The notes beneath the pieces were generated by a model. That model worked only from the letters and a program-made list of their open reading frames with translations, was not told where the DNA came from and did not search any database. Positions 29,498 to 32,920 of a DNA stretch of 55,743 nt are shown here, piece by piece. A program made the position numbers and the translations under genes. How positions within the stretch are numbered: position 1 is the first letter of the stretch; each line of letters begins with the position of its first letter. Source of the DNA: Patescibacteria group bacterium (GTDB taxonomy: Bacteria; Patescibacteriota; Minisyncoccia; Phycocordibacterales; UBA9973); contig JAZKJK010000017.1 in NCBI GenBank assembly GCA_040384365.1, forward strand, positions 1 through 55,743, in the 5' to 3' direction.

Positions 29498-29603
29498 CAA
29501 ATAGGTGTATAATGACTGAGATATGCAGTCCTTTGAAAACTATGGTGATGTGTGTCACCCTCTAGCTTTTGCATAGGCAACCTTAAAAATAAGGAATTTT
29601 AGT

Positions 29604-30083
29604 ATGAAAATAAAAATCCCAAGTTCTTGGGTTAAGTTTCGTAATATTGAAAAGTTACGAGCAATGTTGGAGGGATTTGCAAGAGGACAATTCCTGATGG
29701 AAACACCAGAGGGATTTGTTTTTCGAGGAGAGATAGAGCGATGCTGGGTCGGGGATGATAGTGTTTTTGTTTCCTTTACCTGGCTATGTGAGCGTCGGTT
29801 TGTTTTTGTCTTTGATGGAGCTTGGGAATTAAGAAAATTAAAACCAAAGTGGTTTCCACTTGAATCTCTAAAAGGACCTCCCTTTTTAGAGTTAAAGCCG
29901 GGAAAGTATTACTATCAAGCAGATGAAGACAGAGTAAAAATAGAAGAAGGAAAAGGTGCCATATGTCACTTTTTCAGAAAAGGAGACTATACTAACCTAG
30001 TAAAATGTGAAGATGAGTTTATCCCTTTTGGCGAACTCCACAAATTGGAGTTTTGTAAAGCGATATCACTATTGAAAATATAA
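29604..30083 (+). CDS. hypothetical protein, 159 aa, immediately upstream of the DGR
   Basis: ORF only. No motif recognised. Confidence 0.5.
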   Translation: MKIKIPSSWVKFRNIEKLRAMLEGFARGQFLMETPEGFVFRGEIERCWVGDDSVFVSFTWLCERRFVFVFDGAWELRKLKPKWFPLESLKGPPFLELKPGKYYYQADEDRVKIEEGKGAICHFFRKGDYTNLVKCEDEFIPFGELHKLEFCKAISLLKI

Positions 30084-30177
30084 CTGTGGGTGCTGTTTCA
30101 TAAACCCTCAAGAAGCTCTGCTTAACCACTTGAATGTGTATGCAGGCTTTTTCGTTTGTACAAAATACCAAAAAATG

Positions 30178-30206
30178 TTGACAAAAGGGTCTGTTGGGTG
30201 TATAAT
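30178..30206 (+). promoter_or_regulatory. perfect-consensus sigma70 promoter upstream of the DGR target gene
   Basis: TTGACA (30178..30183), 17 nt, TATAAT (30201..30206). About 125 nt lie between it and the ATG at 30335. Confidence 0.7.
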
Positions 30207-30334
30207 ATAAAGATATATTGCTCTTTAAAAACGACTGTTCGTCATAGCAGAAAGTGGCTTGATTGATAGGCCATTCTCCGCTGTGGCGAAGAGTCCAGCA
30301 AAAAAACAACAAACAAAGAAAGGATGATAACGGC

Positions 30335-31015
30335 ATGAAACCGATTACATCAGGTCAGCAAGAACAGTGCGTCACTGTCATCAAAGACGCGGCCCGTAAA
30401 GCGGGTGAAGCAGCAATCTCCGAACTCTCAGCGAGTGGAGTCATCAATAGCGAAAACTTCCAACGCGTGCTTGGATGGGGAGACCAACTGGTCCCAGTAT
30501 TCCAAGCCTTCGTGAAGGAGAAAATCGCGGAACTGGCGGAAAATATCGCCGGTTGTCTCAAACTCATCTCGGGGGCAGAAGTTCTCACCCTTGAGCCGAC
30601 GGATGGCAAGGAGACGATTGCGGAAGCGAGCGCTCTGTTCAACGGCTGGATCGACGGCGACTTCAAGGAATACGGTTGCGATGTGGAAAGCAAGCCGACG
30701 GTCGCGCAAAAGGTCGTTGTTCATGAGATGATCAAGAACGGCGACTTCAGCCGAATCTTCGGCGGGCTCTCGGACACCTTGGATGCCCTGTGCCTCACCC
30801 AGCCACAGATCATCCAGTTCGTGAAGAAGCATCGCAAATGGCTTCGCACGGATGGCTATGCCACGTTCTTCCTGTTCAAGGTTGGCGACGAGTTCTTCGT
30901 TGCGCGCGTGTGTGTGCTCTCTGATGGCGTCCTCTTTGCCTTCGTCGACCGCTTCTCGCGCGGCAATGTCTGGTATGCCGAGGATCGGCGTCGTGTCGTA
31001 TCCCCGCAACAGTAA
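30335..31015 (+). CDS. DGR variable (target) protein, 226 aa, with the VR in its last 38 codons
   Basis: ATG 30335 behind AAAGGA. The C-terminus ...FFVARVCVLSDGVLFAFVDRFSRGNVWYAEDRRRVVSPQQ matches the TR except at TR adenines. The track ORF begins at an upstream TTG (30263). Confidence 0.85.
   Translation: MKPITSGQQEQCVTVIKDAARKAGEAAISELSASGVINSENFQRVLGWGDQLVPVFQAFVKEKIAELAENIAGCLKLISGAEVLTLEPTDGKETIAEASALFNGWIDGDFKEYGCDVESKPTVAQKVVVHEMIKNGDFSRIFGGLSDTLDALCLTQPQIIQFVKKHRKWLRTDGYATFFLFKVGDEFFVARVCVLSDGVLFAFVDRFSRGNVWYAEDRRRVVSPQQ
30891..31004 (+). repeat. DGR variable repeat (VR)
   Basis: 114 bp aligned without gaps to 31383..31496. There are 20 mismatches, all at positions where the TR has A. 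Confidence 0.9.
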
Positions 31016-31058
31016 CTTTGTTGCTGTTTGCAAAAAATCAAACCGTTCTAAACATGGG

Positions 31059-31082
31059 AAAACCGTGTGGCGAACGGTTTTT
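31059..31082 (+). terminator. rho-independent terminator after the target gene
   Basis: AAAACCGT-GTGGCGA-ACGGTTTT followed by T. The upstream copy AAACCGTTC (31040..31048) can pair alternatively with GAACGGTTT. Confidence 0.7.
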
Positions 31083-31382
31083 CTATTTATACACTTTGAA
31101 ACTTTTATACTTTGACCCTTAAATTTTTATTTTTGCTATACTGAATTTGTAATCAGGTAATGCTTGTGGCTACGGCTTCACGCCATGATTATTTAAAAAT
31201 GTATTTGAGAATTTTGCTGGGAGATTAATCCTTGTGAAAGAGTGGATTCCTTTTTAATAAAATAAAAAACATAAAAGTTGGTGCGATGGGCTGGTGGGCT
31301 TTTAAGCCTAAAATAAAATACAGCACAATCCCTAGCATTAAATTGCGTTTGGATTGGCAGTGACATAGATGGCTCATCGTAC

Positions 31383-31496
31383 AATTCTTCGTTGCGAACG
31401 TGAATGTGAACTCTGATGGCAACCTCAATGCCAACGTCAACCGCTTCTCGAACGACAATGTCTGGAATGCCGAGAATCGGCATCGTGTCGTATCCC
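31383..31496 (+). repeat. DGR template repeat (TR)
   Basis: Non-coding copy of the VR with 11 AAY codons in the VR-equivalent frame. Same orientation as the target gene and the RT. Confidence 0.9.
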
Positions 31497-31526
31497 GAAA
31501 CTCACTGTTTCTCCTTCGCACTAGAT

Positions 31527-31793
31527 TTATTTAGGCGGAGGAGTTTTCTTTTCTAAGCCTTTTTTCCATCCGCCTAGCATTCTGCCAATTTCTTGCAGAT
31601 GCTCGGAGAGGGAAGAATATTTTTCATTTGAGATGCATTTGTTTTCCCAAGCTATTTGCAGGAAGAATTTTATGCCATCAAGCTTGGAAATTGCTATCAC
31701 CAGACGGGGTATCTTGGTCTCCGGCGGAAGATATATCGAAATAAAAATATTTTCTAAAAGACCCAGAAAATAATCTTCAATCTTTCCACCCAA
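31527..31793 (-). CDS. avd: Avd-like four-helix-bundle protein (accessory variability determinant family), coordinates from the first canonical start
   Basis: ...KLDGIKFFLQIAWENKCISNEKYSSLSEHLQEIGRMLGGWKKGL is typical of the CPR four-helix-bundle/23S-IVS protein family. The frame stays open upstream to 31910 and encodes the expected first helix (LLKAKTCYSLWFKIYNDFPKAHRYTLG), but without ATG, GTG or TTG. Confidence 0.7.
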   Translation of the reverse strand: MGGKIEDYFLGLLENIFISIYLPPETKIPRLVIAISKLDGIKFFLQIAWENKCISNEKYSSLSEHLQEIGRMLGGWKKGLEKKTPPPK

Positions 31794-31883
31794 AGTATAA
31801 CGATGCGCCTTTGGAAAATCATTATAAATTTTAAACCACAGAGAATAGCAGGTCTTTGCTTTCAGAAGCGCCGTCGGCGCTGA

Positions 31884-31894
31884 GGGGGGGGGGG
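31884..31894. repeat. G11 homopolymer between and overlapping the divergent avd and RT 5' ends
   Basis: Counted directly: 11 consecutive G, 6 nt upstream of the RT ATG. On the minus strand it reads as Pro codons in the open avd frame. Confidence 0.9.
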
Positions 31895-31900
31895 TAAAAT

Positions 31901-32920
31901 ATGAAACAATTTATTCATAGCTACGATACTATCATAACTATAGAAAAACTGCTCAAAGCTTGGCAGGAATTTTTACGCGACAAGAAAAATAGAAAAGATG
32001 TCATTTTATTTCAAGCCAAATTGATGGACAATATTCTTGAGCTTTTTAATGATTTAAAAGACAAAACTTATCAACATGGTGGCTATACGGAATTCAATAT
32101 ATCCGATCCAAAGCCTCGGCAAATACACAAAGCCACAGTCAGAGACAGGTTGCTCCATCACTTAATCTATCAAGAACTATATCCATATTTTGACTCCAAA
32201 TTCATCCATGACTCATATTCTTGCAGAGTGAACAAAGGGACGCATAAGGCGATAGACAGATTCAGATACTTTTTCCGAAAAGTTTCAAAAAATAACACAA
32301 AGACCTGCTGGATTTTAAAATGCGACATTAGAAAATTCTTTGCGAATATTGACCATGTAATCTTGAAAAACACACTGTCAAGGACGGTCCTTGACAGTGA
32401 TACGCTTTGGTTACTTTCACAAGTAATAGACAGCTTTCAGACCAATTTACATATTTACGCCATGGCTGATATATGTAAAAAGGGGTTACCGCTTGGGAAT
32501 TTAACGTCCCAACTCTTGGTAAATGTGTATATGAATGAATTCGACCAGTTTATGAAAAGAGAATTGAAAGTAAAACACTATATCCGTTACGCAGATGATT
32601 TTGTGATATTGAGCGACGATAAAGAATATCTTAAAAATTTACTTCCTAAAGTTTCAGACTTCTTAGCTGAAAAATTGAAATTGTGTTTGCATCCGGACAA
32701 GGTTTTTATTAAAACATTGGCTTCCGGAATAGATTTTTTGGGTTGGTTGCATTTTCCGGAGCATAGAGTCCTGCGGACGAGTACTAAAAAGAGAATGTTG
32801 CATGCTGTAAAAAATAATCCAAAACCAGCAACCATACAGTCTTATTTAGGGATGCTCTCGCATGGGAATAGCTATAAATTATCTAGAAAAGTTTATCAGA
32901 AATTATATGGTAAAGTGTAG
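31901..32920 (+). CDS. DGR reverse transcriptase
   Basis: 339 aa. PKPRQIHKATVRDRLLHH, SYSCRVNKGTHKA, DIRKFFANIDH, the DGR-typical GLPLGNLTSQLLVNVYMNEFD, and the catalytic YADDF. Confidence 0.9.
   Translation: MKQFIHSYDTIITIEKLLKAWQEFLRDKKNRKDVILFQAKLMDNILELFNDLKDKTYQHGGYTEFNISDPKPRQIHKATVRDRLLHHLIYQELYPYFDSKFIHDSYSCRVNKGTHKAIDRFRYFFRKVSKNNTKTCWILKCDIRKFFANIDHVILKNTLSRTVLDSDTLWLLSQVIDSFQTNLHIYAMADICKKGLPLGNLTSQLLVNVYMNEFDQFMKRELKVKHYIRYADDFVILSDDKEYLKNLLPKVSDFLAEKLKLCLHPDKVFIKTLASGIDFLGWLHFPEHRVLRTSTKKRMLHAVKNNPKPATIQSYLGMLSHGNSYKLSRKVYQKLYGKV

What the first reader, a model, noticed from the sequence alone, without database searches (positions are those of the whole stretch)
30178..32920. 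Complete diversity-generating retroelement: target gene with VR, TR, Avd-like gene and RT
The TR (31383..31496) and VR (30891..31004) align gap-free over 114 bp with 20 mismatches. At every one of the 20, the TR base is A and the VR has G, C or T. There are no non-A mismatches. The TR holds 11 in-frame AAY codons plus GAC and CAT. The RT (31901..32920) has the DGR-type LGNLTSQ and YADDF motifs. A four-helix-bundle Avd-family ORF lies between the TR and the RT. This is the signature of adenine-directed mutagenic retrohoming and is the most interesting system in the window. The specific combination of target type and gene arrangement, covered in the following findings, does not match the textbook cassettes.
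Basis: partly seen in the sequence, partly recalled or inferred. Interest (0 to 1): 0.85.

Follow-up and report, generated by a model that had tools for sequence, protein, structure and literature searches.

The report
Patescibacterial DGR with interrupted avd gene
This is a genuine diversity-generating retroelement of the type already known from tiny uncultivated (CPR/Patescibacteria) bacteria, but its helper gene avd is broken by a run of 11 G's that recurs across the lineage and may act as an on/off switch for targeted hypermutation.

Summary
VR 30891-31004 and TR 31383-31496 align without gaps, and all 20 mismatches sit at TR adenines (P about 1e-15). The RT is closest to the Bordetella phage DGR enzyme, and an Avd homologue lies between TR and RT.

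Two corrections apply. avd is on the minus strand, divergent from the RT. It also has no in-frame start in this assembly: a G11 run (31884-31894) separates its ATG from the Avd body, and only G9 or G12 would restore the frame.

The order target-TR-(avd)-RT is not new. It is architecture B3 of Wu et al. 2018, typical of CPR DGRs, so the element is a new member of a known kind.

The target belongs to a large uncharacterised family with no Pfam match and no significant fold match. There are weak, repeated hits to C-type-lectin-like domains.

The TR lies inside a self-contained, covariation-supported ncRNA of about 405 nt.

The most novel point is the G tract. 82 of 101 related cassettes carry a G8-G13 run at this same spot. 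It leaves avd out of frame in 62 of 81, while the Avd body stays intact. Tract length differs between near-identical contigs. I found no paper describing this.

The parts
30178..30206 (+). Promoter of the target gene (TTGACA-17-TATAAT, 12/12)
   Evidence: The promoter is conserved in relatives.
30233..30295 (+). Conserved long hairpin in the target gene's 5' UTR. SD and ATG follow at 30319-30337.
   Evidence: RNAfold gives -39.5 kcal/mol for the UTR. The same hairpin, with compensatory changes, is seen in about 25 related loci, including orphan targets. No Rfam match.
30335..31015 (+). Target gene, 226 aa. It has no signal peptide or TM segment and no Pfam, NCBIfam or PHROG match. GC is 0.56 and GC3 0.68 in a genome of about 0.38 GC.
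30891..31004 (+). Variable repeat (VR). It encodes residues 186-223, which form three beta strands and a loop at the C-terminus.
31005..31024 (+). VR-specific 3' flank: CGCAAC (IMH-like, against GAAAC after the TR) and an inverted repeat GCAACAG-N6-TGTTGC at 31006-31024
   Evidence: Relatives consistently have CCGCAAC after the VR and CCGAAAC after the TR.
31040..31082 (+). Intrinsic terminator of the target gene
   Evidence: fold; equivalent terminators in relatives
31112..31142 (+). Promoter of the TR-containing RNA: TTGACC, a 19-nt spacer, then the extended -10 TGcTATACT (31134-31142)
   Evidence: TTTTTGTATAMT is conserved at this place in about 29 of 35 relatives.
31149..31553 (+). DGR RNA, about 405 nt, inferred. 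It comprises a structured 5' domain (31149-31382), the TR and a 3' module.
   Evidence: Alignment A2. RNAalifold predicts 70 pairs, 47 of them with compensatory changes. 94.7% of positions are paired; the covariation score is 0.557, against 0.26 in shuffles (0/500 reached it) and 0.11-0.13 in slid controls. No Rfam family matches.
31383..31496 (+). Template repeat (TR), not in a protein-coding context
31497..31511 (+). GAAAC-UCACU-GUUUC hairpin directly after the TR. It is the candidate template:primer (cis-priming) duplex.
   Evidence: Invariant GAAAC...UUUC in relatives. The role is inferred by analogy with the TR:Sp duplex of Handa et al..
31511..31553 (+). 9-bp stem-loop (31511-31519 / 31535-31543) followed by UUUUCUUUUC. 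It is a candidate Avd-binding stem-loop and/or intrinsic terminator of the DGR RNA, and it overlaps the 3' end of avd.
   Evidence: A 7-11 bp stem with covariation is present in 46 of 47 relatives. Handa et al. report Avd-binding stem-loops, mostly 9 bp, just 3' of the TR.
31527..31918 (-). avd gene. ATG at 31918-31916, an 8-codon leader, a C11 run, then the Avd body down to the stop at 31527-31529. It is out of frame as assembled.
31884..31894 (.). G11/C11 homopolymer in the avd 5' coding region and in the RT 5' UTR, ending 6 nt before the RT ATG. It is the only G or C run longer than 6 in the window.
31867..31881 (+). Hairpin AGCGCC-GTC-GGCGCT, 2 nt before the G run. In avd mRNA it lies just 3' of the C run.
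   Evidence: It is present in only about 10 of 26 relatives, so it is a sub-lineage feature.
31901..32920 (+). DGR reverse transcriptase, 339 aa
   Evidence: Pfam RVT_1. The best solved-structure match is 8ub7_A, the 328-aa DGR RT in the Avd/RNA complex entries, at E 1.2e-41; group II intron RTs score about 1e-20. PHROG 1423 E 4e-106.

Best explanation
This is a chromosomal diversity-generating retroelement of the CPR/Patescibacteria type, with the order target - TR - (avd, reverse strand) - RT.

SHOWN
- The TR/VR pair has adenine-only differences.
- The RT is DGR-type and the accessory gene is an Avd homologue.
- The cassette architecture and the RNA structure are conserved across the lineage.

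INFERRED MECHANISM
- A self-contained RNA of about 405 nt is made from its own extended -10 promoter (31134-31142).
- This RNA has a structured 5' domain closed by a 12-bp helix that ends just before the TR, then the TR, then a GAAAC/GUUUC hairpin, then a 9-bp stem-loop followed by a U tract.
- RT and Avd bind this RNA. cDNA synthesis is cis-primed at the GAAAC/GUUUC duplex, which coincides with the 3' limit of TR/VR identity.
- Adenines are copied unfaithfully, and the cDNA replaces the VR. This recodes up to 13 codons (11 AAY, GAC, CAT).
- The recoded residues lie on one face of the C-terminal beta-sheet and on a loop of a 226-aa protein that is probably cytoplasmic and belongs to an uncharacterised family.

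INFERRED CONTROL
- Avd synthesis is gated by the G/C homopolymer in its 5' coding region.
- With G11, as assembled here, only an 18-residue peptide is made from the ATG. G9 or G12 gives full-length Avd.
- Slippage at the tract could occur in replication, and possibly also in transcription or translation. Slippage would make hypermutation an occasional, stochastic event rather than a constant one.
For: DGR identity
- 114-nt gapless repeat with 20/20 mismatches at TR adenines.
- Mutable codons are in frame.
- The RT is closest to the solved DGR RT (E 1e-41, against 1e-20 for group II RTs).
- Avd family hits.
- About 37 related cassettes show A-only TR/VR differences.

Architecture
- 114 of 122 RT-bearing related loci have avd on the reverse strand abutting the RT start.
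- This matches architecture B3 of Wu et al..

RNA
- Conserved extended -10 box after the target terminator.
- 47 of 70 predicted pairs have compensatory changes, and the controls are far lower.
- The 9-bp stem-loop 3' of the TR matches the Avd-binding element that Handa et al. describe across DGRs, including CPR ones.

Switch
- 82 of 101 unique related cassettes carry G8-G13 at exactly this spot.
- 92 of 103 G/C runs of 8 or more in 1.1 Mb of loci lie at this junction.
- CCC is the rarest Pro codon in the window's long ORFs.
- The ATG leader is in frame with Avd in only 19 of 81 loci (f1 18, f2 44).
- The Avd body ORF is nevertheless intact in 76 of 81 loci, whatever the frame.
- Tract-less relatives have a plain in-frame ATG.
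- 3 of 10 groups of contigs with identical flanks differ in tract length. One pair is in frame against out of frame: L112 G8 and L118 G9.
Against: - No read-level data exist, so neither current VR diversification nor tract-length heterogeneity in this population is shown.
- Homopolymer lengths in metagenome assemblies can be miscalled.
- The three leader frames are not equally frequent: f2 is over-represented (44 of 81). A purely random on/off switch does not predict this. It could point to programmed +1 frameshifting or to a length bias.
- The tract also lies in the RT 5' UTR, so it may serve the plus strand instead or as well.
- The promoter, RNA ends and priming site are inferred from conservation and from analogy with the Bordetella phage system. 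They are not measured.
- No RT promoter was identified between the U tract and the RT start.
Confidence: 0.75

Rival explanations
1. This is an ordinary, constitutively competent CPR DGR, and the G tract has no switching role. One possibility is that the frame breaks are homopolymer miscalls in short-read assemblies. Another is that Avd is always made through efficient programmed +1 frameshifting on the CCC-C run, or through transcriptional slippage. In either case the tract would really serve as part of the RT leader or the DGR RNA.
For: - f2, the frame that needs a +1 shift or one C fewer, dominates (44 of 81).
- The tract encodes a poly-proline stretch, and runs of CCC are known +1-slippery sites (own knowledge).
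- A hairpin lies 3' of the C run in avd mRNA in a subset of loci.
- The tract always lies 4-60 nt upstream of the RT ATG.
Against: - All three frames occur (44/18/19), and a single obligatory recoding event does not predict that.
- No stop or rare codon is conserved after the tract.
- The hairpin is absent from most loci.
- The distance to the RT ATG is too variable for a constant Shine-Dalgarno role.
- Miscalls in 77% of independent assemblies from many studies are implausible.
- Contigs with identical flanks differ in tract length.
Confidence: 0.25
2. The cassette in this genome is a decaying or silenced relic. On this reading avd is a pseudogene, and the VR was last rewritten in the past.
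For: As assembled, avd has no in-frame ATG, GTG or TTG before codon 29 of the Avd domain.
Against: - The VR shows no non-A difference from the TR at any of 85 positions. That argues for recent rewriting.
- The Avd body, the RT, the RNA helices and both promoters are intact.
- The same 'break' recurs across the lineage with intact Avd bodies. That is the opposite of random decay.
Confidence: 0.08
3. This is not a DGR. On this reading a partial gene duplication merely lies next to an unrelated reverse transcriptase such as a group II intron, retron or defence RT.
For: The NCBIfam scan gives its best RT score to the group II intron model, but far below that model's cut-off (145.7 against 300 bits). 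No DGR-RT model appeared among the listed NCBIfam hits.
Against: - Mismatches fall only at adenines (P about 1e-15).
- An Avd homologue is adjacent.
- The best solved-structure match is the DGR RT.
- No intron RNA or retron ncRNA was found by Rfam.
- The same four-part cassette is conserved in more than 100 loci.
Confidence: 0.01

Closest known systems
CPR/DPANN DGRs: 'architecture B3' of Wu et al. 2018 (PMC5758913), DGR clade 2 of Roux et al. 2021 (PMC8144416), and the set first surveyed by Paul et al. 2017 (not readable here)
   Same: - The order TR-(avd on the reverse strand)-RT.
- A Patescibacteria host range.
- Chromosomal location.
- Small targets without TM segments or recognisable domains.
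- A C-terminal VR with AAY codons.
   Different: Nothing in the architecture differs. The papers I could read do not mention the homopolymer that interrupts avd, the autonomous promoter and terminator of the TR RNA, or its large structured 5' domain.
Bordetella phage BPP-1 DGR (mtd-avd-TR-brt), the textbook cassette
   Same: - Adenine-specific TR-to-VR information transfer.
- Homologous RT (E 1e-41) and Avd.
- An IMH/IMH*-type asymmetry at the 3' end of the repeats.
- A hairpin that can form a template:primer duplex, and a stem-loop of about 9 bp 3' of the TR.
   Different: - avd is antisense and divergent from the RT, not upstream on the same strand.
- The structured RNA lies mostly 5' of the TR rather than in a 140-nt spacer 3' of it.
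- The target is not a phage tail fibre and is not demonstrably a C-type lectin fold.
- avd carries a frame-breaking G/C run.
Phase-variable 'contingency' genes with poly-G/C tracts (Campylobacter, Neisseria; Bifidobacterium breve pilus switch, PMC9187656)
   Same: - A G/C run of 8-13 inside the 5' coding region.
- In-frame and out-of-frame alleles with an intact downstream ORF.
- Length differences between near-identical strains.
   Different: The gated gene is not a surface structure. It is the accessory protein of a mutagenic retroelement, so the switch would control a second, targeted diversification system. Within-population switching has not been shown here.
C-type-lectin-fold DGR variable proteins (Mtd, TvpA, archaeal AvpA)
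   Same: - The VR is at the extreme C-terminus.
- Variable residues cluster on one surface.
- The domain topology beta-alpha-alpha-beta4 is compatible with the fold.
- There are weak whole-domain Foldseek hits to C-type-lectin-like domains, with TM 0.31-0.43.
   Different: - No significant sequence or fold match to any solved structure.
- No FGE-sulfatase or DUF1566 type Pfam hit.
- The variable residues alternate along two beta strands.

Membership tests
Diversity-generating retroelement (DGR) | TR/VR near-repeat whose differences are confined to TR adenines | tested here: met
   20 of 20 mismatches are at A, and 0 of 85 non-A positions differ. P is about 1e-15.
Diversity-generating retroelement (DGR) | Reverse transcriptase of the DGR clade ([LI]GxxxSQ motif, YxDD box, closest to bRT) | tested here: met
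   LGNLTSQ and YADD are present. The best solved-structure match is the DGR RT 8ub7_A at E 1.2e-41, against about 1e-20 for group II RTs. No formal phylogeny was computed.
Diversity-generating retroelement (DGR) | VR inside the 3' end of an ORF, with mutable adenines at codon positions 1 and 2 | tested here: met
   The TR has 11 AAY codons plus GAC and CAT, all in the target's frame.
Diversity-generating retroelement (DGR) | Accessory Avd homologue adjacent to TR and RT | tested here: met
   Pfam bAvd scores 53.3 bits, above its cut-off of 40. NCBIfam DivGenRetAVD scores 65.8 bits, below its cut-off of 80. PHROG 3206 also matches.
Diversity-generating retroelement (DGR) | Translatable avd ORF | tested here: not met
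   As assembled (G11), the ATG at 31918 gives an 18-aa peptide. The Avd frame has no ATG, GTG or TTG before 31793. G9 or G12 would restore it. This concerns the state of this allele, not family membership.
Diversity-generating retroelement (DGR) | IMH at the VR 3' end that differs from IMH* at the TR 3' end | tested here: met
   In the window the VR reads ...GTATCCC|CGCAAC and the TR reads ...GTATCCC|GAAAC. Relatives consistently have CCGCAAC (VR) against CCGAAAC (TR). Function was not tested.
Diversity-generating retroelement (DGR) | Ongoing mutagenic retrohoming (VR heterogeneity at A sites, TR cDNA) | not testable with these tools
   This needs reads or experiments. Indirect support comes from hypervariable columns confined to the AAY positions across 38 homologues.
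Architecture B3 of CPR DGRs (Wu et al. 2018) | Order TR-(avd)-RT with avd on the reverse strand, and the target upstream | tested here: met
   Window. 114 of 122 related loci have the same order. The definition is in PMC5758913.
DGR clade 2 (Patescibacteria-restricted, Roux et al. 2021) | RT groups with CPR DGR RTs, in Patescibacteria hosts | tested here: inconclusive
   No tree was built. Nearly all related genome records are labelled as Patescibacteria lineages. A few carry other automated labels such as Gammaproteobacteria or Nanoarchaeia.
C-type-lectin-fold DGR target | VR embedded in a CLec / FGE-sulfatase-like fold | tested here: inconclusive
   The models are confident (pLDDT 90.5 and 94.2). 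No Foldseek hit reaches E <= 1e-3 in PDB or BFVD. Recurrent weak hits go to CLec-like domains, with TM 0.31-0.43. There is no Pfam or PDB sequence match.
Phase-variable contingency locus (homopolymer switch) | G/C run of 8 or more inside the 5' coding region, with in-frame and out-of-frame alleles and an intact downstream ORF | tested here: met
Phase-variable contingency locus (homopolymer switch) | Tract length varies between closely related strains | tested here: met
   3 of 10 groups of contigs with identical flanks differ in length: 11/10, 8/9 and 10/8. No second assembly of the window's own strain was available.
Phase-variable contingency locus (homopolymer switch) | Reversible length switching within a population, with an ON/OFF phenotype | not testable with these tools
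   This needs read-level data or culture.
Programmed ribosomal frameshift site | One conserved frame relationship between the upstream and downstream ORFs | tested here: not met
   All three relationships occur: f2 44, f0 19, f1 18. The excess of f2 leaves room for a contribution from +1 slippage.

The most novel reading that the evidence does not exclude
In this large lineage of Patescibacteria DGRs, the accessory gene avd carries a conserved, slippage-prone G/C homopolymer just after its start codon, and this puts it out of frame in most genomes. On the most novel reading, targeted hypermutation is itself under a stochastic, heritable on/off switch, or under a frameshift-dependent throttle. 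The same cassette uses an autonomous, highly structured template RNA of about 405 nt that has no Rfam family. It diversifies a very large domain family (at least 2,459 clusters at 50% identity) whose fold matches no solved structure.
Probability: 0.5. Interest if true: 0.72.

Novelty: new member of a known kind. Interest (0 to 1): 0.5.

Why it matters
As a DGR this is one more example of a class catalogued by the thousand in CPR bacteria. Its 'odd' gene order is the norm for that class.

What could matter is how DGR activity is controlled, which is poorly understood. Here a frame-breaking homopolymer in avd sits at the same position in about 80% of more than 100 related cassettes. It offers a concrete hypothesis that can be tested from metagenome reads: mutagenic retrohoming is switched on only in the subpopulation that carries an in-frame tract. 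That would limit the cost of hypermutation in tiny genomes.

The well-defined template RNA and the compact 150-residue variable domain, which is predicted with high confidence, are also usable leads. They could serve structural work and engineered DGR-based mutagenesis.

Tried and rejected
- Other VRs: an A-tolerant scan of both strands of the window found none.
- Rfam: only tRNAs at gathering level. An E-value scan of 30150-31950 gave one chance-level hit.
- Target family: Pfam, NCBIfam and PHROGs gave nothing for the target or for ORF 29604-30083. Pfam on ten longer family members also gave nothing. A PDB profile search gave only chance hits.
- Fold: Foldseek with the full-length model and with the domain-only model gave no hit at E <= 1e-3. 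A C-type lectin fold is therefore neither shown nor excluded.
- Hairpin before the G run: I tested whether it is a universal partner of the tract. It is not, being present in only about 10 of 26 loci.
- G run as the RT Shine-Dalgarno: rejected as a general role, because the spacing to the RT ATG ranges from 4 to 60 nt.
- ORF 29604-30083 as part of the cassette: rejected, since it has no homologue in any of 164 related loci.
- avd decay in out-of-frame loci: rejected, because the Avd bodies are intact.
- RT promoter: none was found between the DGR RNA U tract and the RT start, so RT expression is unexplained.
- Literature: Paul et al. 2017 and the supplements of Wu et al. are not held. I could not assign the VR to one of their UVR classes, nor exclude that the tract is mentioned there.
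- Own contig: the window's own protein is not in the contig index, so there is no second assembly of this strain.


Full report
OBSERVATION
The two repeats are real and at the stated coordinates. Window 30891-31004 (VR) and 31383-31496 (TR) align without gaps over 114 nt and differ at 20 positions. At each of these the TR has A and the VR has G, T or C. None of the 85 non-A positions differs. With 29 A's in the TR, the chance that all 20 differences fall on A's is about 1e-15. No further copy exists in the window on either strand.

In the frame of the ORF that contains the VR, the TR reads as 11 AAY codons plus GAC and CAT. Twelve of these 13 codons are recoded in the VR.

The RT ORF 31901-32920 has LGNLTSQ and YADD and a Pfam RVT_1 domain. 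Its best match among all solved structures is the 328-residue DGR reverse transcriptase of the RT-Avd-RNA complex entries (8ub7 and others) at E 1.2e-41. Group II intron and retron-type RTs follow at about 1e-20.

An Avd homologue lies between TR and RT: Pfam bAvd above its cut-off, NCBIfam DivGenRetAVD E 3.6e-18, and PHROG 'Avd protein of DGR'. The element is therefore a DGR.

CORRECTIONS TO THE ANATOMY
avd is on the minus strand (31527-31918) and divergent from the RT. Its ATG (31918-31916) lies inside RT codon 6.

The Avd reading frame is open from the stop at 31527 up through a run of 11 G's (31884-31894, C's in avd mRNA). It contains no ATG, GTG or TTG upstream of 31793. The ATG at 31918 is in another frame and yields MNKLFHILPPPPQRRRRF-stop. 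In silico, G9 or G12 gives a continuous 129-130-residue Avd, while G10, G11 and G13 do not.

The target CDS starts at 30335 (MKP..., as in homologues). Coordinate 30178 is the -35 box of a perfect sigma-70-type promoter.

SURROUNDINGS
The flanking genes are housekeeping genes: Sua5/YrdC upstream and MurB downstream, followed by ORFs that I read by eye as SecE, NusG and L11. I saw nothing phage-like in the flanking ORFs and made no phage-specific search of them, so the cassette is chromosomal.

THE ARRANGEMENT IS THE KNOWN CPR TYPE
I fetched 84 loci through the target protein and 80 through the RT. Of 122 loci that contain the RT, 114 have avd on the reverse strand with its 5' end abutting or overlapping the RT start. 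Where the target is on the contig, the order is target(+), TR(+), avd(-), RT(+).

Wu et al. 2018 define exactly this order as architecture B3, 'TR-(avd)-RT'. [quoted passage not shown] Roux et al. 2021 describe a DGR clade restricted to Patescibacteria whose targets typically lack transmembrane or other recognisable domains (PMC8144416). Nearly all related genome records here are Patescibacteria MAGs.

THE TARGET
The 226-residue protein has no Pfam, NCBIfam or PHROG hit and no obvious signal peptide or membrane segment. This last point is read from the sequence; no predictor was run.

It has 298 word-indexed homologues of 55-74% identity, all unnamed. A profile search finds 2,459 clusters at 50% identity with E <= 1e-3. 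The conserved core is the C-terminal region of about 155 residues, which is sometimes present two or three times in one protein. Ten longer members also lack Pfam domains. The closest RT relatives carry more diverged members of the same domain with other N-termini.

Across 38 homologues the only hypervariable columns are those that correspond to the TR's AAY codons. Together they give the pattern FFVAxVxxxxxGxLxVxVxRFSxDxVWxAExRxRVVVPQ. This is indirect, family-wide evidence of diversification.

AlphaFold models are confident: pLDDT 90.5 for the whole protein, and 94.2 with pTM 0.91 for residues 75-226. The variable residues alternate along two beta strands and a loop at the C-terminus.

Foldseek finds nothing at E <= 1e-3 in PDB or BFVD. 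The only hits that cover the whole domain are C-type-lectin-like domains with TM 0.31-0.43 (NKp80, NKR-P1B, a scavenger receptor CRD, a herpesvirus lectin). The beta-alpha-alpha-beta4 topology is compatible with that fold. Whether this is a very divergent C-type lectin fold, as Roux et al. anticipated for such targets, or something else remains open.

THE TEMPLATE RNA
Downstream of the target gene there is an intrinsic terminator (31040-31082). An extended -10 box follows (TGcTATACT, 31134-31142). TTTTTGTATAMT is conserved at this position in most relatives.

From there to a U tract after the TR, the length is nearly constant at 380-390 nt in most relatives and about 405 nt here. An alignment of 23 such RNAs (A2) gives a consensus structure of 70 pairs, 47 of them with compensatory changes. 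94.7% of cells are paired. The covariation score is 0.557, against 0.26 for shuffles (0 of 500 reached it) and 0.11-0.13 when partners are slid by 1-3 columns.

The window's helices include:
- 31162-31182.
- 31199-31251.
- A 12-bp helix, 31281-31292 with 31371-31382, which closes the 5' domain one base before the TR.
- A 9-bp stem, 31511-31519 with 31535-31543, followed by UUUUCUUUUC.

That last stem-loop is found in 46 of 47 relatives, with stems of 7-11 bp and 9 bp the most common.

Handa et al. (bioRxiv 10.1101/2023.10.23.563531) report putative Avd-binding stem-loops, most often 9 bp, just 3' of the TR in 207 of 278 DGRs, including CPR ones. They also show cis-priming from a TR:spacer duplex. 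Here the invariant GAAAC (31497-31501) and GUUUC (31507-31511) can form such a duplex exactly where TR/VR identity ends. Relatives have CCGAAAC after the TR but CCGCAAC after the VR, an IMH*/IMH-type asymmetry.

The priming role is inferred by analogy. No Rfam family matches any of this RNA. Because the stem-loop with its U tract also looks like an intrinsic terminator, the TR RNA is probably a separate transcript. How the RT is transcribed is then unclear, since I found no plus-strand promoter between 31554 and 31900.

THE G TRACT
This is the least expected feature.
- Among 101 unique related cassettes, 82 have a run of 8-13 G's at the same place, between a short ATG leader (for example MTIK, MMT or MNKLFHIL) and the Avd body.
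- In 1.1 Mb of fetched DNA, 92 of 103 G or C runs of 8 or more are at this junction. Several of the remainder are the same junction on truncated contigs. The window has no other G or C run longer than 6.
- CCC is the rarest proline codon in the window's long ORFs. The run is therefore not explained by a need for prolines.
- In 81 tract-bearing loci where an ATG leader could be identified, the leader is in frame with Avd in 19. It needs one more base, or two fewer, in 18. It needs one fewer, or two more, in 44.
- The Avd body ORF is nevertheless intact in 76 of 81 loci, with similar conservation in all three classes.
- Tract-less relatives for which a leader could be identified mostly have a plain in-frame ATG.
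- Of ten groups of contigs that share identical flanks, three differ in tract length: 11 against 10, 8 against 9, and 10 against 8. L112 (G8) is in frame and L118 (G9) is not.

These are the hallmarks of a slippage-prone contingency tract. The excess of the 'one base too many' class, and the fact that the run encodes prolines, leave room for +1 ribosomal slippage or transcriptional slippage to contribute.

The tract also sits in the RT 5' UTR. Its distance to the RT ATG varies from 4 to 60 nt, so a constant Shine-Dalgarno role is unlikely. A hairpin next to the tract (31867-31881 here) occurs in only a subset of loci.

I found no paper that links DGRs or Avd with homopolymers, phase variation, slippage or frameshifting (a term search within Wu et al.). 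Paul et al. 2017 could not be read.

MECHANISM AND CONFIDENCE
I am about 97% confident that this is a DGR of the CPR B3 type that has recoded the C-terminal surface of its target by adenine mutagenesis.

The RNA boundaries and structure are well supported by conservation. The priming site and the Avd-binding role are analogies.

That the G tract gates Avd production is my best reading, at roughly 50-60%. The main rival is constitutive recoding or assembly error (about 25%). A decaying relic is unlikely (under 10%).

VERDICT
The finding is correct and the element is real. As a system it is a new member of a known kind. The frame-breaking homopolymer in avd, recurrent across the lineage, is the part worth following up, and it can be tested directly with reads.

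Noticed in passing
window 30335-31015; loci L001-L084: The target gene is much more GC-rich than its genome: GC 0.56 and GC3 0.68, against GC3 of about 0.32-0.49 in neighbouring genes. Across 83 related loci the target exceeds its flanks by 11.6 GC points on average (more than 5 points in 74 loci). The adjacent RT is 4.5 points below the flanks. I have no explanation for this.
   Followed up: partly
window 30207-30334 (hairpin 30233-30295): The target's 5' UTR holds a long hairpin (TTCGYCAYAGCAGAAAG...CTGTGGCGAAGAG) that is conserved, apparently with compensatory changes, upstream of about 25 family members. These include orphan copies without a nearby RT. It has no Rfam match and may be a cis-regulatory RNA.
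   Followed up: partly
window 31149-31382: The 5' domain of the TR-containing RNA is about 230 nt long. It has invariant blocks (GGCUACGGCUU 31168-31178, AGUUGGUG 31276-31283) and five covarying helices, and it has no Rfam family. It could be turned into a covariance model for finding CPR DGRs.
   Followed up: yes
L003/L010, L017, L023, L025, L028-L034 and other loci: About half of the genome loci that carry a target-family gene have no RT or avd within 5 kb, so these are orphan or remote targets. Some genomes have two or three copies flanking one cassette (L038, L044, L048, L050, L075). In L003 and L005 the gene sits among dTTP-synthesis genes (SHMT, ThyA, Tmk, dUTPase, dCTP deaminase).
   Followed up: no
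L038 (near 1265), L044 6043, L050 2098: Relatives that lack the G run at the avd 5' end instead carry a G7-G8 run just 3' of the TR. That is where the other loci have the 9-bp stem-loop, at the avd 3' end.
   Followed up: no
P0121 (476 aa), P0122 (560 aa): Some family members contain three tandem copies of the roughly 155-residue variable-domain core.
   Followed up: no
window 29604-30083: A 159-aa ORF lies directly upstream of the cassette, with a TATAAT-like box (GTGTATAATG) at about 29505-29514. It has no Pfam, NCBIfam or PHROG hit and no homologue in any of the 164 related loci, so it is not part of the DGR.
   Followed up: yes
window 31867-31881: A perfect hairpin, AGCGCC-GTC-GGCGCT, lies inside the Avd coding sequence, 2 nt from the G run. 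Equivalent hairpins of 7-10 bp with different sequences occur in about 10 of 26 relatives (for example L022, L039, L058 and L064). This suggests selection on structure in one sub-lineage.
   Followed up: partly
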